In this document: positions 7,508 to 47,700 of the stretch, one piece after another
Position numbering within the stretch: the first letter of the stretch is position 1
Layout: each line of letters opens with the position of its first letter
From: a virus
Direction: 5' to 3' (one strand)
DNA length: 64,000 nucleotides
Virus record (IMG/VR): IMGVR_UViG_3300033145_000192
Location: 1 to 64,000 of that record
Notes under the pieces: generated by a model
Databases searched by the model: none
What the model was told of the DNA's origin: nothing
What the model saw: the letters and a program-made list of their open reading frames with translations, nothing else
Made by a program: the position numbers and the translations under genes

Positions 7508-7659
7508 GCGAGAGTAGCTCAAGTTGGTAGAGCGGCGGGGTGATTCCCGTGTTAGTTCTTAGTGACTGACCCATTTAACTTTACCTAGGGAAAGTTGTGG
7601 AATCATGTGTTAGTCTAGACACATGCTAAGACGTGAAGGTTCAAATCCTTCTTCTCGCA
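7508..7659 (+). ncRNA. tRNA-like RNA with anticodon/variable region expanded to four hairpins
   Basis: Acceptor GCGAGAG/TTCTCGC, D arm GCTC/GAGC, T arm GAAGG-TTCAAAT-CCTTC; about 95 nt of hairpins between D and T arms. Confidence 0.7.
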
Positions 7660-23698: not shown

Positions 23699-24065
23699 GG
23701 GGATGAAACGGCATCGACTCGCATGATGAAATGATGAATGCAGGCCGTGGAAGATACTCGGGCCACGTTAAAAAGGTATCGAAACTTTAATTGCCAAGAA
23801 CGTATTCAAGGCACGCCGTTACTACGGCATCCGCAGCACGGTTCGCCGTGCCGCAATCGTCGCTTAACCGATTGTAGTTAGGTCGTCTCCTAGACGAAAA
23901 TAGGACTCGTGCGGATATTCTCGTAAGCCGCAAGTTGTAAATAACGAGATAGTCGCTGGAACCAAGTAGCCAGATAGGTTGTTGGACCGATAAAACCAAC
24001 CAAGCCTGTGAAGAGTTTGTTGAAGATTGATGTAGAGGACTCGGGTTCGACTCCCGACATCTCCA
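23699..24065 (+). ncRNA. ssrA: tmRNA; tag reading frame 23793-23867 (AKNVFKARRYYGIRSTVRRAAIVA*)
   Basis: GGGGATG/CATCTCC-A acceptor with G3:U70, GGCATCGAC 5' motif, T arm TCGGG-TTCGACT-CCCGA, TAATT-GCC resume context. Confidence 0.92.
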
Positions 24066-24124
24066 TATTGGTTGTGGCCTCCTTTCGTAGCAGACCCCCG
24101 CTAGCATATCGGGTCATATATGCC

Positions 24125-24207
24125 AGGGATATACGCCACGCGGAGTAGAGCGGTCTTGTTTTCCGGCGCAGCAAGATGTGTGGTGGGTTCGACTCCCACT
24201 ATCCCCA
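24125..24207 (+). ncRNA. tRNA-like element with extended anticodon arm
   Basis: Acceptor GGGATA/TATCCC, T arm GTGGG-TTCGACT-CCCAC, 8-bp stem GTCTTGTT/AGCAAGAT with 9-nt loop; weak D arm. Confidence 0.55.
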
Positions 24208-26734: not shown

Positions 26735-27350
26735 AAGATAACCAAAAGGCTGATTGAAAGGTCTGACGAAACGTCTGCGAAAGCACTTGAGTAACAAACG
26801 CATAGGCTCTAGAAACGTAGAACGGGTTAAATGCCCGACAGGCTCTTGAGCAAGTAGCACACGAAGTAGGACGACTAAGTAGATGCTGAGTAGGAAACCT
26901 CAGTAGGGAGTAAATTTGTAGTGTAATGGAAGCACACCGGCCAGCACATGCGTTAAGGAGCCGGTAGTTTGGGTTCGAATCCCAACGTGATTTGTAGTGG
27001 GTTGGCGAGGCTGGCAAGCTAAGTCAACTTAATCAAGGATTGCCACATAGAAGTGGAGAAAGCAGAATTGGGTGTTCTGCCTGCAAGGGGTCGCTACCTT
27101 TGTATTGCTTATCAAGCCCCACACGATACGGAGCGGTAGTGTAATAGTGAGACGTATAAATCCTAGCGGACCTTCACGTCGAGCACGTTGGGTAGACATA
27201 GGCCCAAAGGTGCTGGTGCAACTCCAGCCTGCCCCATTTCTAGTTCGGAAGAGTAGACTCGTTGTCTATTACGCCTCAAAGACTTGGCATTTACATGCGG
27301 CGTTCAGCAGTCAAGTCCGGTTCAGAGCCTAAATACGCCGCTCAGAGGGT
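26735..27350 (+). ncRNA. ROOL-like large ornate ncRNA containing two tRNA-like inserts (26912-26993, 27130-27236); boundaries approximate
   Basis: No credible ORF; many hairpins; long-range pair 26803-10/27324-31; remembered ROOL motifs CGTAGAA, GAGCAAGTAGCAC..AAGTAGG, GTAGTGGGTTGG, TTAATCAA, TTTGTAT, GAAGAGTAGAC, TACGCC..AAAGACTTGG in order. Confidence 0.7.
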
Positions 27351-35012: not shown

Positions 35013-35090
35013 AACGGACAGGGTGCCGTAGCGGTCTGCTAAACCGACTGGCCATATAAAGTGGTCGTGGTTCGAGTCCACCTCCATCCG
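35004..35090 (+). tRNA. tRNA-Ser (GCT)
   Basis: Class II cloverleaf, G73. Confidence 0.82.
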
Positions 35091-35652: not shown

Positions 35653-35723
35653 GCAAACCACTCTTAATGGATAAGAATTTGGCTTAAAACCAAGCATAGC
35701 GGGTTCGATTCCCGCACCTTTAT
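35653..35723 (+). pseudogene. Degenerate tRNA-Leu (TAA) lacking acceptor pairing
   Basis: D, anticodon and T arms intact; 5' and 3' strands do not pair. Confidence 0.55.
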
Positions 35724-43633: not shown

Positions 43634-43843
43634 ATGCCAACGTATGACTATCGGTGTAGACACTGCCAGTTTGAATTTGATAACTTTCAGTCAATGACAT
43701 CGGAACCACTACGAACATGTCCAAACTGCAACCTAGAGATGCTTGAGCGGAAGATAGGACCAGGTGGGGCCTTCATATTTAGGGGGCCTGGGTTCTACTG
43801 TAACGACTACAAGAAAAAGAAGCGAGAGAAGAATGAACCCTGA
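43634..43843 (+). CDS. FmdB-family zinc-ribbon protein
   Basis: MPTYDYRC..C, CPNC, F.G.GFY.NDY. Confidence 0.85.
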   Translation: MPTYDYRCRHCQFEFDNFQSMTSEPLRTCPNCNLEMLERKIGPGGAFIFRGPGFYCNDYKKKKREKNEP

Positions 43844-44186
43844 GCAAGAACTTTCACTATTCAATGGTGTCATAAAGCTACTCGGCACATACTCTCACCC
43901 AAGAGATGTCATAAAGAGATTAGCATACTTCTATAAGGAAGAAACAGTGTTGTATGAGCAAGACCTCAGAATTAAGAGGCTTGTCGATGCAATGGATAGC
44001 GCGGTCAAAGAGTGGGATGTTCCACTCGGTTGTCCATCAATACGCAAAGTTGACCTAACAGAACAAGAGAAGAAGCTGATTCGCGGCAGCAAGTTCATTG
44101 CAGCTATCAAGCTGGTTCGTCAGAGAACTGGCTTCAATCTCAAAGACTCCAAGATGATAGTAGACAACTATCGCTTTGGCAGATAG
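43833..44186 (+). CDS. Hypothetical protein with C-terminal ribosomal L7/L12 CTD-like motif
   Basis: KFIAAIKLVRQRTGFNLKDSKMIVD resembles L7/L12 KI.VIK.VR..TGLGLKEAK..VE. Confidence 0.6.
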   Translation: MNPEQELSLFNGVIKLLGTYSHPRDVIKRLAYFYKEETVLYEQDLRIKRLVDAMDSAVKEWDVPLGCPSIRKVDLTEQEKKLIRGSKFIAAIKLVRQRTGFNLKDSKMIVDNYRFGR

Positions 44187-44275: not shown

Positions 44276-44500
44276 TAAGGAGAATGATATGAAGTATGCG
44301 AATGAAATCAAGTTCACAATTGCATTCCTGGTATTTGGCGTATTGTTCGCTATTGCCTGCGGAGTAGTAGGAACACTTTTGCCAGCCAGTCCAATTCAAA
44401 TCGCATTGGGCATCATAGCTGCGGCATTGGGACTACCTGGCCTAATCGGCACACTCGTTTGTCTGATGGGCTAGGCTGCAAGAACAAATAAATTCAGCCC

Positions 44501-44528
44501 TTGAATGTCAGGGGCATCGACCTATAAT
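44501..44528 (+). promoter_or_regulatory. Sigma70-like promoter
   Basis: TTGAAT-N16-TATAAT. Confidence 0.65.
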
Positions 44529-44576
44529 CTGATGGACAGGACAAAAAATTCCCCACAGGGGAGGAGAGGTATTGTT

Positions 44577-45320
44577 ATGACGAAGAAGGAAACCAAGCTC
44601 AACCAGGTTCTCGCAATCGAAAAGGGCGTCAAGGCACGCACCAGCGGAACTGTCACCAAGCTCTATCACATGGTCCAGAAGCCAGTTTTGCTGGTCGGAC
44701 TAGCGAAGAACTATCAGCCTCTAAACGAGGATGGCCAGCACTATCCACCTGAGCGTCAGAGGGTTCAGGTCAGGGCAGAGGATACTCTCAAGGATACCCG
44801 AAAGGCTCTTGCAGAGTTGTTTGATATCACAGCCAGGAAGGACTGGGCAAACTGTGAGGCTAGGGCTGCGGTCGTGGTCAATGGCCAGGAGCTTGTTTCC
44901 AACGTCCCAGTAACGTATCTGCTCTTCCTCGAAAAGCAGCTTACCGACCTTCGCACCCTAGTCTCCAAGATTCCGGTCTTGGATGGTTCCGAGGAATGGA
45001 AGATGGACCTGGCAACAGGGCTCCATAAGACAGACCCAACCAAGACTACTAGGACTCAAAAGGTCCAGAAGCCAATCGTCCTTTATGATGCGACCGAGGA
45101 GCATCCAGCACAAACTCAGCTAATCACTGAGGACATTGTTGTAGGACATTGGACCACGGTGAAGCAGTCAGGTGCGCTACAGGCCGACCGAAAGGTTGAT
45201 GTGCTTGAGCGTATTGAGACTCTGCTAGAGGCAGTCAAGTTTGCCCGTGAAACGGCGAACAGCAATGATGCGCCAAAGCAGCAGGTTGCTGACGCTTTGT
45301 TCGGATACATCTTGGGCTAA
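44577..45320 (+). CDS. Conserved-looking helical/coiled-coil protein of unknown function
   Basis: KLNQVLAIEKGVK, VPVTYLLFLEKQL.DL, VLYDATEEHPAQ, AVKFARE.AN; I recall similar proteins from bacteria and phages but did not verify this. Confidence 0.8.
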   Translation: MTKKETKLNQVLAIEKGVKARTSGTVTKLYHMVQKPVLLVGLAKNYQPLNEDGQHYPPERQRVQVRAEDTLKDTRKALAELFDITARKDWANCEARAAVVVNGQELVSNVPVTYLLFLEKQLTDLRTLVSKIPVLDGSEEWKMDLATGLHKTDPTKTTRTQKVQKPIVLYDATEEHPAQTQLITEDIVVGHWTTVKQSGALQADRKVDVLERIETLLEAVKFARETANSNDAPKQQVADALFGYILG

Positions 45321-45331
45321 GGCTCAAGTAA

Positions 45332-45403
45332 GGCTCGGTCGTCTAAATAAAAAGACTCCCCTCATAGGGAGGGGCAATGTAGGTGAAAGTCCTACCTGAG
45401 TCA
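45332..45403 (+). ncRNA. tRNA-like element (TAG at anticodon position, non-canonical loops)
   Basis: All four stems pair; A33, T loop TGAAAGT, D loop lacks GG. Confidence 0.6.
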
Positions 45404-45405
45404 TA

Positions 45406-45572
45406 AGGATAACAGACTGAATCTTAGATTTAGACTGAATGGCGATATGTCATTGGAGGTTCGAATCCTTCCCTGCCCAATACGTGGGCGGGTTCCCAAA
45501 CTGGCAAAGGGAACGGCGGTAACTAACCCGTCGTTGACAAAATATCGTGCTTTAGACTTAGCTTATTATCCT
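45406..45572 (+). ncRNA. Permuted tRNA-mimic module 1 (Y-RNA-like; long stem at variable-arm position)
   Basis: T arm 45455-71, closed acceptor CCTGCCC/GGGCGGG, D arm, hairpin 45514-33, bulged terminal stem. Confidence 0.75.
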
Positions 45573-45574
45573 AA

Positions 45575-45820
45575 GTTGAGTATCGCAGGAGGTAGCTATA
45601 TCAAATGTAACTGACAAACCAAGCCTGAGACACGGGTTCGAATCCCGTCTGGTCGATTGGACTGACAGCTTGTCTGTCGGACTGAACAGTGAGTAAGGGG
45701 AAACACACAAAACTTCCTATAACGACCGGTAGCTTAGTGGCAAAGCGTAGGTTTTCAGATTAACGCAGTTACTTAAACGTCGATAGTTACGTAATGTGCC
45801 TGTAACCAATATTGACTAAC
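45575..45820 (+). ncRNA. Permuted tRNA-mimic module 2 (YrlA-like; long stem replaces anticodon loop)
   Basis: T arm 45632-48, acceptor CTGGTCG/CGACCGG with 66-nt linker, D arm GCTT/AAGC, extended stems. Confidence 0.75.
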
Positions 45821-45874
45821 ATCATAATTGTTAAAGGGGGCGGCGAACACGGTTAGGTTTCTCGCCCCCATTTC

Positions 45875-45946
45875 GACCTTATCGTCCAACGGATAGGACA
45901 GGAGTTTCCTAAACTTCAAATCTGGGTTCGAATCCCAGTAGGGTCA
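45875..45946 (+). tRNA. tRNA-Arg (CCT)
   Basis: Cloverleaf. Confidence 0.88.
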
Positions 45947-46016
45947 TTTCAAAACTAGCTGATTGAAACCATTTGTCCTAGGCAACATTTGGAAGTAGAT
46001 GTTACGGTTTGGGAGT

Positions 46017-46087
46017 AGGGTCGTAGTGTAATAGCAACATACCCGTCGTTGAGGCGGGAGATGCGGGTGCAACTCCCGTCGAGTCTG
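46017..46087 (+). pseudogene. Atypical tRNA-Gln-like (TTG) element
   Basis: G33, T loop TGCAACT, G:G mismatch in acceptor. Confidence 0.55.
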
Positions 46088-46249
46088 TAGGAGTAATCAT
46101 GGCAATTGATATTGAGCACTGGTTTAAGAAAGTAAAGAGGTCTAAGGGACACCACGTAAGCAGAATGCAAGTTCCCCCAAATACAATGCAAGAACTCCTA
46201 GAAGAACTAAAAGCACTGAGACCGGCACCAAAGCCAGTGGAAGAAGAGT

Positions 46250-46630: not shown

Positions 46631-47275
46631 ATGGACACGAGATTCAGAAGATTGCAAAGAAGCCACGCACAAGAACCCAGTGATATTCAAACACACGCGA
46701 GGCTTCTCTCATCTGCGATTCGCTCAGGATTTTTGAATTTTCATCACGTCCTCCTCTGCGCTTTTTTGGGGCACCACGCGGCACGGCTCACGATGATAAA
46801 TGAGGCGAAGCATGACGGGGTCATCTATAACGGCAAGAAGATTCCGAACATGGAAATTACGCACTTGATAGGTAACATTCCTCAATGGGGAAGAGAACCT
46901 GCAAGGAGAGCGGGCCTTGCTGTCACGAGAATGTGCATAGAACACCTAAAATCGGTCGGCCAAACTGGCTCGTTCTACACCCTGGCGATACAAGGAGCCG
47001 ATGAAGCAGAGCGCGTAATCAAACACGATACTCCAGACAAAGAGCTATGGGCAATAATCCGCCGCATTCAAGGCCAGCGGGCCAGCCCTATGCCTACTAG
47101 GAGAGAGAAGGTGGGTGCGTGTGAACGCATGATAGCGAACTTTCTCATTGATTGTGCCGCATCAGGAAAACACACTGGACTACTAAAGGCATCGACTGCC
47201 TGGTTTGATGATAACAAACTTGAGGCAGCGGTAAGAGCAGAGCTATATCCATGGGCTCTAGGAGAATACATATGA
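46631..47275 (+). CDS. Hypothetical protein
   Basis: 214-aa ORF with GAGG RBS. Confidence 0.6.
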   Translation: MDTRFRRLQRSHAQEPSDIQTHARLLSSAIRSGFLNFHHVLLCAFLGHHAARLTMINEAKHDGVIYNGKKIPNMEITHLIGNIPQWGREPARRAGLAVTRMCIEHLKSVGQTGSFYTLAIQGADEAERVIKHDTPDKELWAIIRRIQGQRASPMPTRREKVGACERMIANFLIDCAASGKHTGLLKASTAWFDDNKLEAAVRAELYPWALGEYI

Positions 47276-47700
47276 GGGTCATCATTTGCGGCAGTCGTGG
47301 CATTAAGGGACCAGAGGGCATGAAGCACGTAATGGACGCCATCAAGGCGAGCGGCTTTGTAGTGACCGAAGTTGTTACTGGTCAGGCCGAAGGTGTCGAT
47401 GAACTAGCTGATGCTTGGGCTAAAGAGGCTGGAATAGACAGAGTTGTTTTCCCAGGAAACTGGAAAGGCAAGGGCAAGTCTGCTGGCTATAAGCGCAATC
47501 AGAAAATGGCATGGTATGTGTCACTATTCATGGACCAGGACAATCCCCCAGAGAACCTCAAGGGTGGGTGCATTGCGGTCTGGAATGGTTCTTCTAGAGG
47601 AACTGGACACATGATTGACATAGCGACGGAGAATTGTCTTCCGCTATACGTTCACACCGTTAAGAAAGATGTGGAGGAAGCTGCTCCAGCGAGTTCCTAA
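47272..47700 (+). CDS. SLOG-superfamily (YspA/DUF2493-like) protein
   Basis: MRVIICGSR, VVTGQAEGVD.LA..WA, SAGYKRN..MA, WNGSSRGT.HMI. Confidence 0.8.
   Translation: MRVIICGSRGIKGPEGMKHVMDAIKASGFVVTEVVTGQAEGVDELADAWAKEAGIDRVVFPGNWKGKGKSAGYKRNQKMAWYVSLFMDQDNPPENLKGGCIAVWNGSSRGTGHMIDIATENCLPLYVHTVKKDVEEAAPASS

What the first reader, a model, noticed from the sequence alone, without database searches (positions are those of the whole stretch)
45575..45820. YrlA-like module with a 66-nt insert closing the acceptor stem
The anticodon stem (AAGCCTG/TAGGTTT) continues into GTAACTG/CAGTTAC, GTAGCTAT/ATAGTTAC and GCAGG/CCTGT. The acceptor CTGGTCG-A...CGACCGG is bridged by 66 nt containing hairpin CTGACAG/CTGTCGG. 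RNase P and 3' processing could open the acceptor and give a two-piece, CCA-addable tRNA mimic without an anticodon.
Basis: partly seen in the sequence, partly recalled or inferred. Interest (0 to 1): 0.72.

Follow-up and report, generated by a model that had tools for sequence, protein, structure and literature searches.

The report
Phage tRNA mimic, expanded acceptor loop
This stretch of an uncultured 177-kb phage is a real, conserved RNA shaped like a transfer RNA read back to front and without an anticodon; it is the second of two such domains that follow an unknown gene (DUF7873) in many phages and bacteria, and here the loop that closes its acceptor stem has grown to 67 bases and is probably cut out to leave a two-piece tRNA look-alike.

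Summary
Window 45580-45808 (+) is a circularly permuted tRNA-like RNA: four rod helices, T arm, 7-bp acceptor stem, D arm, no anticodon loop. A covariance model built from 35 relatives without the window scores it at 106 bits (E 2e-26), with the extra 66 nt placed in the acceptor loop. On 119 distinct aligned rows, 95% of cells pair and 30 of 31 pairs show compensatory changes.

It is the second domain of a roughly 0.5-kb RNA that follows the DUF7873 gene in nearly all 100 sources searched with the model. The scan has met this gene-RNA pair more than 100 times on other DNA.

It resembles YrlA Y RNAs but fails Rfam's threshold, and no Ro60 gene is in the phage. In bacteria the locus co-occurs with an unlinked Ro60 gene.

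The insert is lineage-specific: close relatives have loops of 6, 7, 25 and about 81 nt, and the family median is 14.5. Its hairpin is no better than chance.

Opening by RNase P and 3' processing is not shown. It is supported indirectly: half of the relatives encode N-CCA exactly after the acceptor 3' strand, and Mycobacterium smegmatis YrlA is processed this way. Verdict: a new variant of a known kind.

The parts
44501..44528 (+). Sigma-70-like promoter TTGAAT-16-TATAAT in front of the DUF7873 gene. It is the only promoter-like site in 44300-46100.
   Evidence: pattern match only
44577..45320 (+). DUF7873 gene (247 aa, ATG at 44577 after GGAGGAG). It is the conserved upstream neighbour of the RNA.
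   Evidence: Pfam PF25283, E 7e-100; start from P0001 and the sequence; AF2 pLDDT 84 with no PDB match
45455..45511 (+). Module 1 core: T arm 45455-45471, acceptor 3' strand CCTGCCC, 7-nt loop AATACGT, acceptor 5' strand GGGCGGG, and a 3-bp D stem with an 11-nt loop. Its flanking rod reaches about 45406-45572.
   Evidence: scanner; Rfam YrlA 15.5 bits, E 3.8; R1 core hit 23.6 bits
45580..45808 (+). Module 2, the finding: full-length match to family model R1.
   Evidence: 106.4 bits, E 1.9e-26, model positions 1-172
45585..45627 (+). 5' strands of the rod: P1 45585-45589, P2 45592-45599, P3 45607-45613 and P4 ('anticodon' stem) 45621-45627. The conserved AUCAAAUG motif lies between P2 and P3.
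45632..45648 (+). T arm: ACGGG / UUCGAAU / CCCGU.
45649..45656 (+). Acceptor 3' strand CUGGUCG plus discriminator A45656. No CCA is encoded; the next bases are UUGG.
45657..45722 (+). 66-nt lineage-specific insert in the acceptor loop: hairpin 45662-45680, then a mostly unpaired A/C-rich tail (ACACACAAAACUUCCUAUAA).
   Evidence: unique in the genome
45723..45746 (+). Acceptor 5' strand CGACCGG (C1-G72), then U8 A9, then D arm GCUU / AGUGGCA / AAGC.
45748..45803 (+). 3' strands of the rod: P4 45748-45754, internal loop UCAGAUUAACG, P3 45766-45772, conserved UUAAACGUCG 45773-45782, P2 45783-45790 and P1 45799-45803.
45836..45869 (+). GC-rich hairpin that closes the unit just before tRNA-Arg(CCU) at 45875. 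Relatives have hairpins with similar loops at the same place.
   Evidence: -20.8 kcal/mol, z -3.9; sequences

Best explanation
Window 45580-45808 is the second tRNA-like domain of a roughly 0.5-kb non-coding RNA. It is probably co-transcribed with the DUF7873 gene from the promoter at 44501.

Shown: it belongs to a large family found in phages and several bacterial phyla. The family is a circularly permuted tRNA, with T arm, 7-bp acceptor stem and D arm, and with the nucleotides expected for the usual tertiary contacts present. In place of an anticodon loop it has a conserved four-helix rod with sequence-conserved internal loops. The 66 nt are an expansion of the acceptor loop. This loop is the family's variable site, and the expansion is specific to this phage lineage.

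Inferred: the RNA works like a YrlA-type Y RNA, as a tRNA-shaped scaffold bound by a protein partner. That partner would be DUF7873 and possibly host Ro60.

Inferred, about even odds: the acceptor loop is opened. RNase P would cut 5' of C45723. RNase Z or exonucleases would trim back to A45656. The host CCA-adding enzyme would add CCA. The 66-nt piece would be released, leaving a nicked two-piece tRNA mimic held together by the acceptor stem and the rod.

The confidence given (0.6) is for the whole statement including the opening step. Family membership and fold alone I put at about 0.95.
For: Family membership: R1 was built without the window and scores it at 106.4 bits, E 2e-26. 86 rows spanning the whole model came from 100 sources, almost all just 3' of the DUF7873 match.

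Structure: 95.1% of cells pair, against 56% shuffled and 40-46% slid, and 30 of 31 pairs have compensatory changes. RNAalifold finds P2, T, acceptor and D on its own and P3 as well. P1 and P4 are supported by the partner-swap test and by the anchor test, 68% against 7%.

Linkage to DUF7873: the same gene-then-module-1-then-module-2 order is seen in Arthrobacter phage Racecar, Gordonia phages Phendrix and Ronaldo, Rhodococcus phage NiceHouse, an IMG/VR provirus and a Myxococcales MAG. My scanner finds both modules in 101 of 155 loci, with 347 plus-strand against 51 minus-strand hits.

Insert as variable site: loops range from 5 to 118 nt with a median of 14.5, and 5 of 86 are 60 nt or longer. 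In the close clade the loops are 6, 7, 25, about 81 and 67 nt.

Opening: N-CCA lies at offset 1 in 50 of 88 loci and at no other offset. G1-C72 occurs in 80 of 88 and U-1 in 58 of 88. The module's CCA status tracks that of neighbouring tRNA genes, 68% against 10%. Only 1 of 39 tRNA genes in this window encodes CCA, so the absence of CCA here fits the phage's own tRNA genes. M. smegmatis YrlA is cut by RNase P and receives CCA in vivo (PMC4201824).

YrlA likeness: Rfam YrlA aligns full length to short-loop relatives at 27-38 bits. Ro60-linked YrlA-like RNAs in the same bacterial genomes reach only 36-45 bits.
Against: There are no transcript, end-mapping or binding data for this phage or any relative.

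The window has C1-G72, A at -1 and no encoded CCA, which is less typical of a good RNase P substrate than the family norm.

Several relatives with long loops pair the insert into a coaxial extension of the acceptor stem. That should resist RNase P, so opening cannot be required for the family's function.

The acceptor-stem sequence beyond pair 1:72 is not conserved, so no specific aminoacylation identity is visible.

DUF7873 has a neutral pI, no recognisable RNA-binding fold and no annotated function. Its role as partner rests on gene order alone.

An earlier check in this scan (e1-2703945) priced the DUF7873-binding claim at only 22 in 100.
Confidence: 0.6

Rival explanations
1. Same family and same fold, but the acceptor loop stays closed. 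The 66 nt would be an expansion segment, a hairpin plus a single-stranded C/A-rich platform, that recruits a further protein or RNA or is simply tolerated. The RNA would then act as one piece, as most YrlA RNAs are thought to do.
For: Most YrlA RNAs are considered closed, and S. Typhimurium and D. radiodurans Y RNAs are not cut (PMC4201824; 10.1101/312249). About a third of long-loop relatives extend the acceptor helix through the insert. The window lacks CCA, G1 and U-1. A/C-rich tails recur in about 9 of 25 long loops and in the close relatives L162 and L163, which could mark a binding platform rather than a leader.
Against: An exact N-CCA in half of the family, tracking the CCA habit of neighbouring tRNA genes, is hard to explain for a loop that is never opened. 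The window keeps a tRNA-length 7-bp acceptor stem with an unpaired stretch 5' of position 1, which is the determinant the authors named for RNase P cleavage of M. smegmatis YrlA. The insert is not conserved even within the close clade, and its hairpin is no better than chance.
Confidence: 0.3
2. A permuted tRNA gene of the Cyanidioschyzon or archaeal kind. The rod would be excised, the ends ligated into an anticodon loop, and the acceptor opened, giving a true decoding tRNA.
For: The gene order is identical to permuted tRNA genes, and Wang et al. raise the idea for YrlA (10.1101/312249). The bases after the stem, UUUCAGA, could be read as an anticodon loop with UCA (sequence).
Against: The rod is not a disposable leader and trailer. 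P1-P3 and their internal loops (AUCGA / UUAAACGCCG, AGAUCUAA) are conserved with covariation across phyla. No bulge-helix-bulge motif is apparent, and bacterial splicing endonucleases of that kind are unreported. The would-be anticodon region is not conserved as a 7-nt loop.
Confidence: 0.02
3. A second, two-piece (permuted) tmRNA-like gene. The insert would be the excised intervening segment and the downstream piece would carry a tag reading frame.
For: It has the same permuted order and the same logic of an excised segment. There is a weak Rfam beta_tmRNA hit over the T arm, acceptor strand and start of the insert (12.7 bits, E 0.13).
Against: It has a full D stem, which tmRNA lacks. No pseudoknots or conserved tag frame were seen. 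The score is far below the gathering score of 84. The 3' piece is a conserved rod strand rather than an mRNA-like domain. The phage already has a standard one-piece tmRNA at 23699-24068.
Confidence: 0.01
4. Debris of the tRNA island: the 3' half of one decayed tRNA gene followed by the 5' half of another.
For: It lies inside a 43-gene tRNA cluster. MFE folding of the stretch is no better than shuffles.
Against: The two acceptor halves are complementary. The whole unit is conserved with compensatory changes in phages and bacteria, including bacterial loci outside any tRNA cluster.
Confidence: 0.01

Closest known systems
YrlA (Y RNA-like A, Rfam RF02553), especially Mycobacterium smegmatis YrlA (Chen et al. 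2014, PMC4201824; Wang et al. 2018, bioRxiv 10.1101/312249)
   Same: The permuted order is the same: T arm, acceptor-like stem-loop, D arm. The tRNA tertiary nucleotides are kept, and the anticodon stem is replaced by a stem formed from the 5' and 3' parts. The RNAs sit in tandem with a second tRNA-like RNA, as YrlA does with YrlB. The 7-bp acceptor stem matches M. smegmatis YrlA, which is opened by RNase P and receives CCA. The 5'-strand motif AUCGAAUG of relatives (AUCAAAUG in the window) resembles the Ro60-binding GNCGAAN0-1G.
   Different: It is encoded after DUF7873, not beside Ro60, and no Ro60 gene is in this phage or in five relatives. It scores below Rfam's gathering threshold. The rod is longer, with four helices and its own conserved internal loops that R1 does not find in Ro60-linked YrlA-like RNAs. 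N-CCA is encoded in half of the family. Here the acceptor loop is 67 nt.
Circularly permuted tRNA genes of Cyanidioschyzon merolae and some archaea (Soma et al. 2007, as cited in 10.1101/312249)
   Same: The 3' half is encoded before the 5' half, the acceptor is closed by an intervening sequence that RNase P and RNase Z remove, and the ends pair.
   Different: Those precursors are circularised at a bulge-helix-bulge motif to make a real anticodon loop and a decoding tRNA. Here the paired ends are a conserved functional rod and no anticodon exists.
Two-piece tmRNA from permuted ssrA genes (alpha-proteobacteria, cyanobacteria, some beta-proteobacteria; Rfam RF01850 for the beta form). The biology is stated from my own knowledge.
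   Same: The T arm and acceptor 3' strand lie upstream, an intervening segment is excised, the acceptor 5' strand lies downstream, and the product is held together by base pairing.
   Different: tmRNA has a reduced D arm, pseudoknots, a tag reading frame and alanine identity (G3:U70). None of these is present here.

Membership tests
YrlA (Rfam RF02553 / Chen et al. 2014) | T-arm-like and D-arm-like stem-loops with tRNA-invariant nucleotides, in the order T, then acceptor-like stem-loop, then D | tested here: met
   UUCGAAU T loop with G53-C61; A14, G15, G18, G19 and A21 in the D loop; U8; C48 available for a G15-C48 Levitt pair. Stems covary.
YrlA (Rfam RF02553 / Chen et al. 2014) | 5' and 3' parts pair into a long stem in place of the anticodon arm, with no anticodon loop | tested here: met
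   P1-P4:
YrlA (Rfam RF02553 / Chen et al. 2014) | Score at or above Rfam's gathering threshold (69 bits) | tested here: not met
   Module 2 of the window gives no hit at E<=10. Short-loop relatives score 27-38 bits. However, Ro60-linked YrlA-like RNAs in three bacterial genomes also reach only 36-45 bits.
YrlA (Rfam RF02553 / Chen et al. 2014) | Encoded next to a Ro60/Rsr (TROVE) gene | tested here: not met
   There is no TROVE gene in the 177-kb phage or in five related phage or provirus records. In bacteria TROVE is present in 27 of 37 genomes that carry the locus, but never adjacent to it.
YrlA (Rfam RF02553 / Chen et al. 2014) | Ro60-binding motif GNCGAAN0-1G in the 5' strand | tested here: inconclusive
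   The window has AUCAAAUG, two mismatches. Many relatives have AUCGAAUG, one mismatch. Myxococcota relatives have CUCUCU instead.
YrlA (Rfam RF02553 / Chen et al. 2014) | Bound by Ro60/Rsr in vivo | not testable with these tools
   Needs immunoprecipitation.
   106.4 bits, E 1.9e-26, positions 1-172; the window was not in the seed.
   Gene 44577-45320; module 1 at 45455-45511 and module 2 at 45632-45746, 177 nt apart, against a family spacing of 142-368 nt.
Permuted tRNA gene giving a decoding tRNA | Ends form a bulge-helix-bulge or similar motif whose excision and ligation creates a 7-nt anticodon loop | tested here: not met
   The ends form a conserved 4-helix rod with conserved internal loops. 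No conserved anticodon loop is seen.
Two-piece tmRNA | Tag reading frame, pseudoknots, reduced D arm, G3:U70 | tested here: not met
   The D stem is a full 4 bp. Pair 3:70 is A-U here and is not conserved in the family. beta_tmRNA scores 12.7 bits against a gathering score of 84.

The most novel reading that the evidence does not exclude
The acceptor loop is a programmed excision site. RNase P and RNase Z would release two products. One is a nicked, CCA-ended tRNA mimic that tRNA-binding factors can take for a tRNA, such as the CCA-adding enzyme, an aminoacyl-tRNA synthetase, EF-Tu, or host toxins and defence nucleases aimed at the acceptor end. The other is a free RNA of about 66 nt, a hairpin with a C/A-rich tail, that acts as a small RNA cargo. 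On this reading, the expansions of the loop seen in different phage lineages would be payloads exchanged on a common tRNA-processing chassis.
Probability: 0.1. Interest if true: 0.8.

Novelty: new variant of a known kind. Interest (0 to 1): 0.6.

Why it matters
Bacterial Y RNAs of the YrlA type are the only described RNAs with this inside-out tRNA shape. They are known only as neighbours and partners of Ro60.

This element belongs to a second, widespread lineage of such RNAs. It travels with a different, uncharacterised protein (DUF7873), it occurs in phages that have no Ro60 gene, and it often encodes a ready-made CCA end.

That turns an isolated observation in M. smegmatis, a Y RNA opened by RNase P and given CCA, into a testable property of a whole family. 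It also gives cultured actinophages (Phendrix, Ronaldo, NiceHouse, Racecar) as systems for the test.

In bacteria the locus is strongly enriched in genomes that also have Ro60: 9 of 13 against 15 of 439 in two phylum samples. This suggests a link to Ro60-based RNA surveillance that earlier notes of this scan had discounted.

The 66-nt insert itself is a minor, lineage-specific feature. Its value is that it marks the acceptor loop as the family's expansion site.

Tried and rejected
- **Sequencing runs:** the search for public runs holding 44400-46200 listed none, so no end mapping was possible.
- **blastn:** 45300-46150 against 50,697 phage records gave no match.
- **Energy-only folding:** the 246 nt gave z +0.17, and the MFE misses the rod. 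The insert alone gave z -0.31. Energy alone therefore supports nothing here.
- **DUF7873 function:**
  - Foldseek against PDB gave only very weak Cas7-like rows, TM about 0.12.
  - VIA-align wide gave generic helical matches with Z of 9.2 or less.
  - PHROGs gave nothing, and PADLOC gave one stray 18-bit row.
  - The ESM Atlas returned only DUF7873 clusters.
  - No paper mentions DUF7873 or PF25283.
- **C/A-rich unpaired tail as a general feature of long loops:** not significant over 25 loops (A+C 0.56 against 0.52, p 0.47; unpaired 0.51 against 0.46, p 0.56). It holds for a subset only.
- **P1 and P4 as fixed alignment columns:** not recovered in the MAFFT or CM alignments. They are supported only by the alignment-free partner-swap test.
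- **Module 1 as a complete tRNA with its own anticodon arm:** a closed hairpin directly after the D arm occurs in only 38 of 88 loci, and its loops are not conserved.
- **Closest relatives:** contigs of P0003 and P0004 (75-77% identity) returned no DNA.
- **Literature:** I could not check it.
- **CCA-adding enzyme in the phage (PF01743):** none found.
- **Not attempted:** a protein-complex prediction for DUF7873 with Ro60. I do not claim direct binding.

Full report
**Setting.** The window is the first 64 kb of a 177,375-bp IMG/VR phage record with direct terminal repeats, rated 100% complete. Its GC content is about 48%. It carries a tmRNA and 42 tRNA genes by ARAGORN. The finding lies inside this tRNA island, between a 247-aa gene and tRNA-Arg(CCU).

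**The observation.** Read 5' to 3', the stretch has:
- four 5' strands of a rod (GCAGG, GUAGCUAU, GUAACUG, AAGCCUG);
- a 4-nt variable region;
- a canonical T arm (ACGGG / UUCGAAU / CCCGU);
- an acceptor 3' strand (CUGGUCG) and discriminator A45656;
- 66 nt of insert;
- the acceptor 5' strand (CGACCGG), then UA;
- a canonical D arm (GCUU / AGUGGCA / AAGC), then G;
- the four 3' strands of the rod in reverse order.

The nucleotides that make the tRNA tertiary contacts are present: U8, A14, G15 with C48, G18, G19, G53-C61 and U54-U55-C56. There is no anticodon loop.

Energy-based folding alone does not single the region out. The 246 nt give z +0.17 and the insert alone gives z -0.31. The case rests on comparison with relatives.

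**Relatives.** The gene upstream (44577-45320) is DUF7873, PF25283, E 7e-100. tblastn finds it in 75 phage records. In Arthrobacter phage Racecar, Gordonia phages Phendrix and Ronaldo, Rhodococcus phage NiceHouse and an IMG/VR provirus, the gene is followed by an unannotated 400-700-nt gap. That gap holds the same two permuted tRNA-like modules in the same order. The same is true of the closest metagenomic relatives (79% protein identity) and of a Myxococcales MAG chromosome.

I fetched 64 viral and 80 bacterial loci. A simple scanner looked for a T arm, a 7-nt acceptor 3' strand, a loop, a complementary 5' strand and a D arm. It finds both modules after the gene in 101 of 155 loci and one module in 47. 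There are 347 hits on the gene's strand against 51 on the other.

**Structure by covariation.**
- RNAalifold on 87 module-2 sequences predicts P2, T, acceptor and D unaided, each with many double changes. On a cleaner 35-sequence seed it also predicts P3.
- A covariance model built from that seed, without the window, matches window 45580-45808 at 106.4 bits, E 1.9e-26, over all 172 positions. It places a 69-nt insertion where the model has 13.
- The same model gives 86 rows spanning the whole model from 100 sources.
- On that alignment 95.1% of cells pair, against 56% after shuffling and 40-46% after sliding. 30 of 31 pairs show compensatory changes.
- P1 and P4 are not in the model and do not align as fixed columns. 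Their own-partner duplex energies beat swapped partners: -10.8 against -8.3 kcal/mol, p 2e-9, and -7.7 against -4.7, p 9e-19. A perfect 5-bp anticodon-type stem at the tRNA register occurs in 68% of loci against 7% of controls.

The rod also carries sequence-conserved internal loops: AUCGA opposite UUAAACGCCG, and AGAUCUAA after P4. A disposable leader and trailer would not be conserved in this way.

**The insert.** Across 86 full-length module-2 RNAs the acceptor loop ranges from 5 to 118 nt with a median of 14.5. Five are 60 nt or longer, and the window's is the third longest. Within the window's own clade (DUF7873 70-79% identical) the loops are 6, 7, 25, about 81 and 67 nt, with no alignable sequence apart from a short ACAAAACU-like tail. 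The insert occurs nowhere else in the phage genome.

It is therefore a lineage-specific expansion at the family's variable site. Its hairpin (45662-45680) appears in the MFE fold but is no better than chance.

Long loops in the family fall into two kinds. One has a hairpin followed by an unpaired C/A-rich tail; the window, Racecar, NiceHouse, Ronaldo and others are of this kind. The other folds the insert into a coaxial extension of the acceptor stem. The C/A-rich tail is not a general property.

**Is the loop opened?** This is not shown, because no RNA run could be listed. Three comparative facts support it.
1. N-CCA follows the acceptor 3' strand exactly in 50 of 88 non-redundant module-2 loci and at no other offset. 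For module 1 the count is 21 of 88. The CM alignment gives 45 of 86.
2. Position 1:72 is G-C in 80 of 88 loci, and the base before position 1 is U in 58 of 88.
3. Where tRNA genes lie nearby, the module's CCA status follows theirs. In loci whose module 2 encodes CCA, 68% of tRNA genes do too, against 10% otherwise. The sample is small, 6 against 11 loci.

In this window only 1 of 39 tRNA genes encodes CCA, and the phage has no CCA-adding enzyme. The lack of CCA after A45656 therefore matches the phage's own tRNA genes, which must rely on the host enzyme.

The published precedent is M. smegmatis YrlA. It has a 7-bp acceptor stem, is cut by RNase P in vitro and in vivo, is nibbled and receives CCA, and its two halves stay bound to Rsr (PMC4201824; 10.1101/312249).

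Against a universal rule stand the relatives with coaxially extended stems. The window also has atypical features: C1-G72, A at -1 and no encoded CCA.

**Relation to YrlA and Ro60.**
- Rfam's YrlA model gives nothing on the window's module 2, and 15.5 bits on module 1. It aligns full length to module 2 of short-loop relatives at 27-38 bits, E 6e-5 to 0.1, below the gathering score of 69.
- TROVE is absent from this phage and from five related records.
- In bacteria that carry the locus, TROVE is present in 27 of 37 genomes but never adjacent.
- In even samples of two phyla, TROVE is found in 6 of 9 and 3 of 4 genomes with a strong DUF7873 hit. It is found in 10 of 192 and 5 of 247 genomes without one. 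One of those 5 is the unpublished genome G285, and dropping it changes nothing. In each sample the seed genome counts among the positives. These counts are not corrected for phylogeny.
- The TROVE loci of three such genomes carry their own tandem YrlA-like RNAs at 36-45 bits. R1 matches these only in the T, acceptor and D core.

The DUF7873-linked RNAs are thus a sister lineage of Ro60-linked YrlA with its own rod. They are not the missing Y RNAs of those genomes. The co-occurrence points to a shared pathway.

**DUF7873.** AlphaFold gives a confident model (pLDDT 84) of long helices packed against beta hairpins. Foldseek, VIA-align, PHROGs, PADLOC, the ESM Atlas and the literature give no function. 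Its pI is near neutral. Its role as the RNA's partner is inferred from gene order only.

**Transcription.** The one promoter-like site (TTGAAT-16-TATAAT, 44501-44528) precedes the gene. The pattern scan finds no promoter-like site, and no plus-strand terminator-like site, between the gene's stop and the RNA. A GC-rich hairpin (45836-45869, z -3.9) follows module 2. Gene and RNA are therefore probably one transcription unit.

**Verdict.** The YrlA-like reading is right in architecture and wrong in formal membership. The two-piece reading is plausible, with family-wide indirect support, and remains unproven. The scan has reported the DUF7873 plus double tRNA-mimic pair more than 100 times on other DNA.
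- the loop-length spectrum;
- the N-CCA statistics and their tie to the CCA habit of neighbouring tRNA genes;
- the two classes of long loops;
- the co-occurrence with Ro60.

Noticed in passing
window 45406-45572: Module 1 of the same RNA is compact, with a 7-nt acceptor loop. Across the family it has discriminator A in 86 of 88 loci and a class-II-like D arm (3-bp stem, 10-11-nt loop). N-CCA follows in 19 of 36 viral but only 2 of 52 bacterial loci. In the window a 6-bp hairpin with an 8-nt loop follows the D arm, but such a hairpin is found in only 38 of 88 loci.
   Followed up: partly
window 45836-45869: A GC-rich hairpin (z -3.9) with loop ACGGUUAG lies after module 2. Relatives have hairpins with similar loops (CGGAUAUG, ACGGUUAC) at the same place, so it may be a third conserved element rather than a plain terminator.
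   Followed up: partly
window 45350-45403: Two hairpins (CUCCCCUCAUAGGGAGGGG and GUAGGUGAAAGUCCUAC) lie between the DUF7873 stop and module 1. The second is nearly identical in the closest relative, L009.
   Followed up: no
window 35069-35079, 27215-27225, 35662-35715: T-loop motifs (GGTTCGAGTCC, GGTGCAACTCC) and a partial Rfam tRNA hit lie outside any full tRNA prediction. They may be further tRNA-like fragments or mimics in the island.
   Followed up: no
window 7508-7659: An Rfam tRNA hit (35.8 bits) spans 152 nt, which implies a large insertion in a tRNA-like gene. It lies far from the main tRNA island.
   Followed up: no
window 24125-24207: ARAGORN calls a tRNA of unknown identity with a four-base anticodon (tccg), 57 nt after the tmRNA gene.
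   Followed up: no
window, all tRNA genes: Only 1 of 39 tRNA genes is followed by CCA, the tmRNA gene also lacks CCA, and the phage has no PF01743 enzyme. All of its tRNAs must depend on the host CCA-adding enzyme.
   Followed up: yes
L158 235-644 (TROVE locus of a Streptosporangium genome): Three tandem YrlA-like core modules lie upstream of the Ro60 gene, all below Rfam's gathering score (up to 44.7 bits). Rfam's YrlA threshold therefore misses Ro60-linked RNAs in this phylum.
   Followed up: partly
L077 3148-3312 (minus strand): In one delta-proteobacterial MAG the module-2 RNA (104 bits) lies on the strand opposite to the DUF7873 match. This is an exception to the usual co-orientation.
   Followed up: no
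window 47251-47700 and 43764-44186: Two nearby genes have Pfam hits. One is a YAcAr/SLOG-family protein (E 1e-12), also present downstream in the closest relative. The other is an ORF with a weak match to the ribosomal L7/L12 C-terminal domain, below the cut-off.
   Followed up: no
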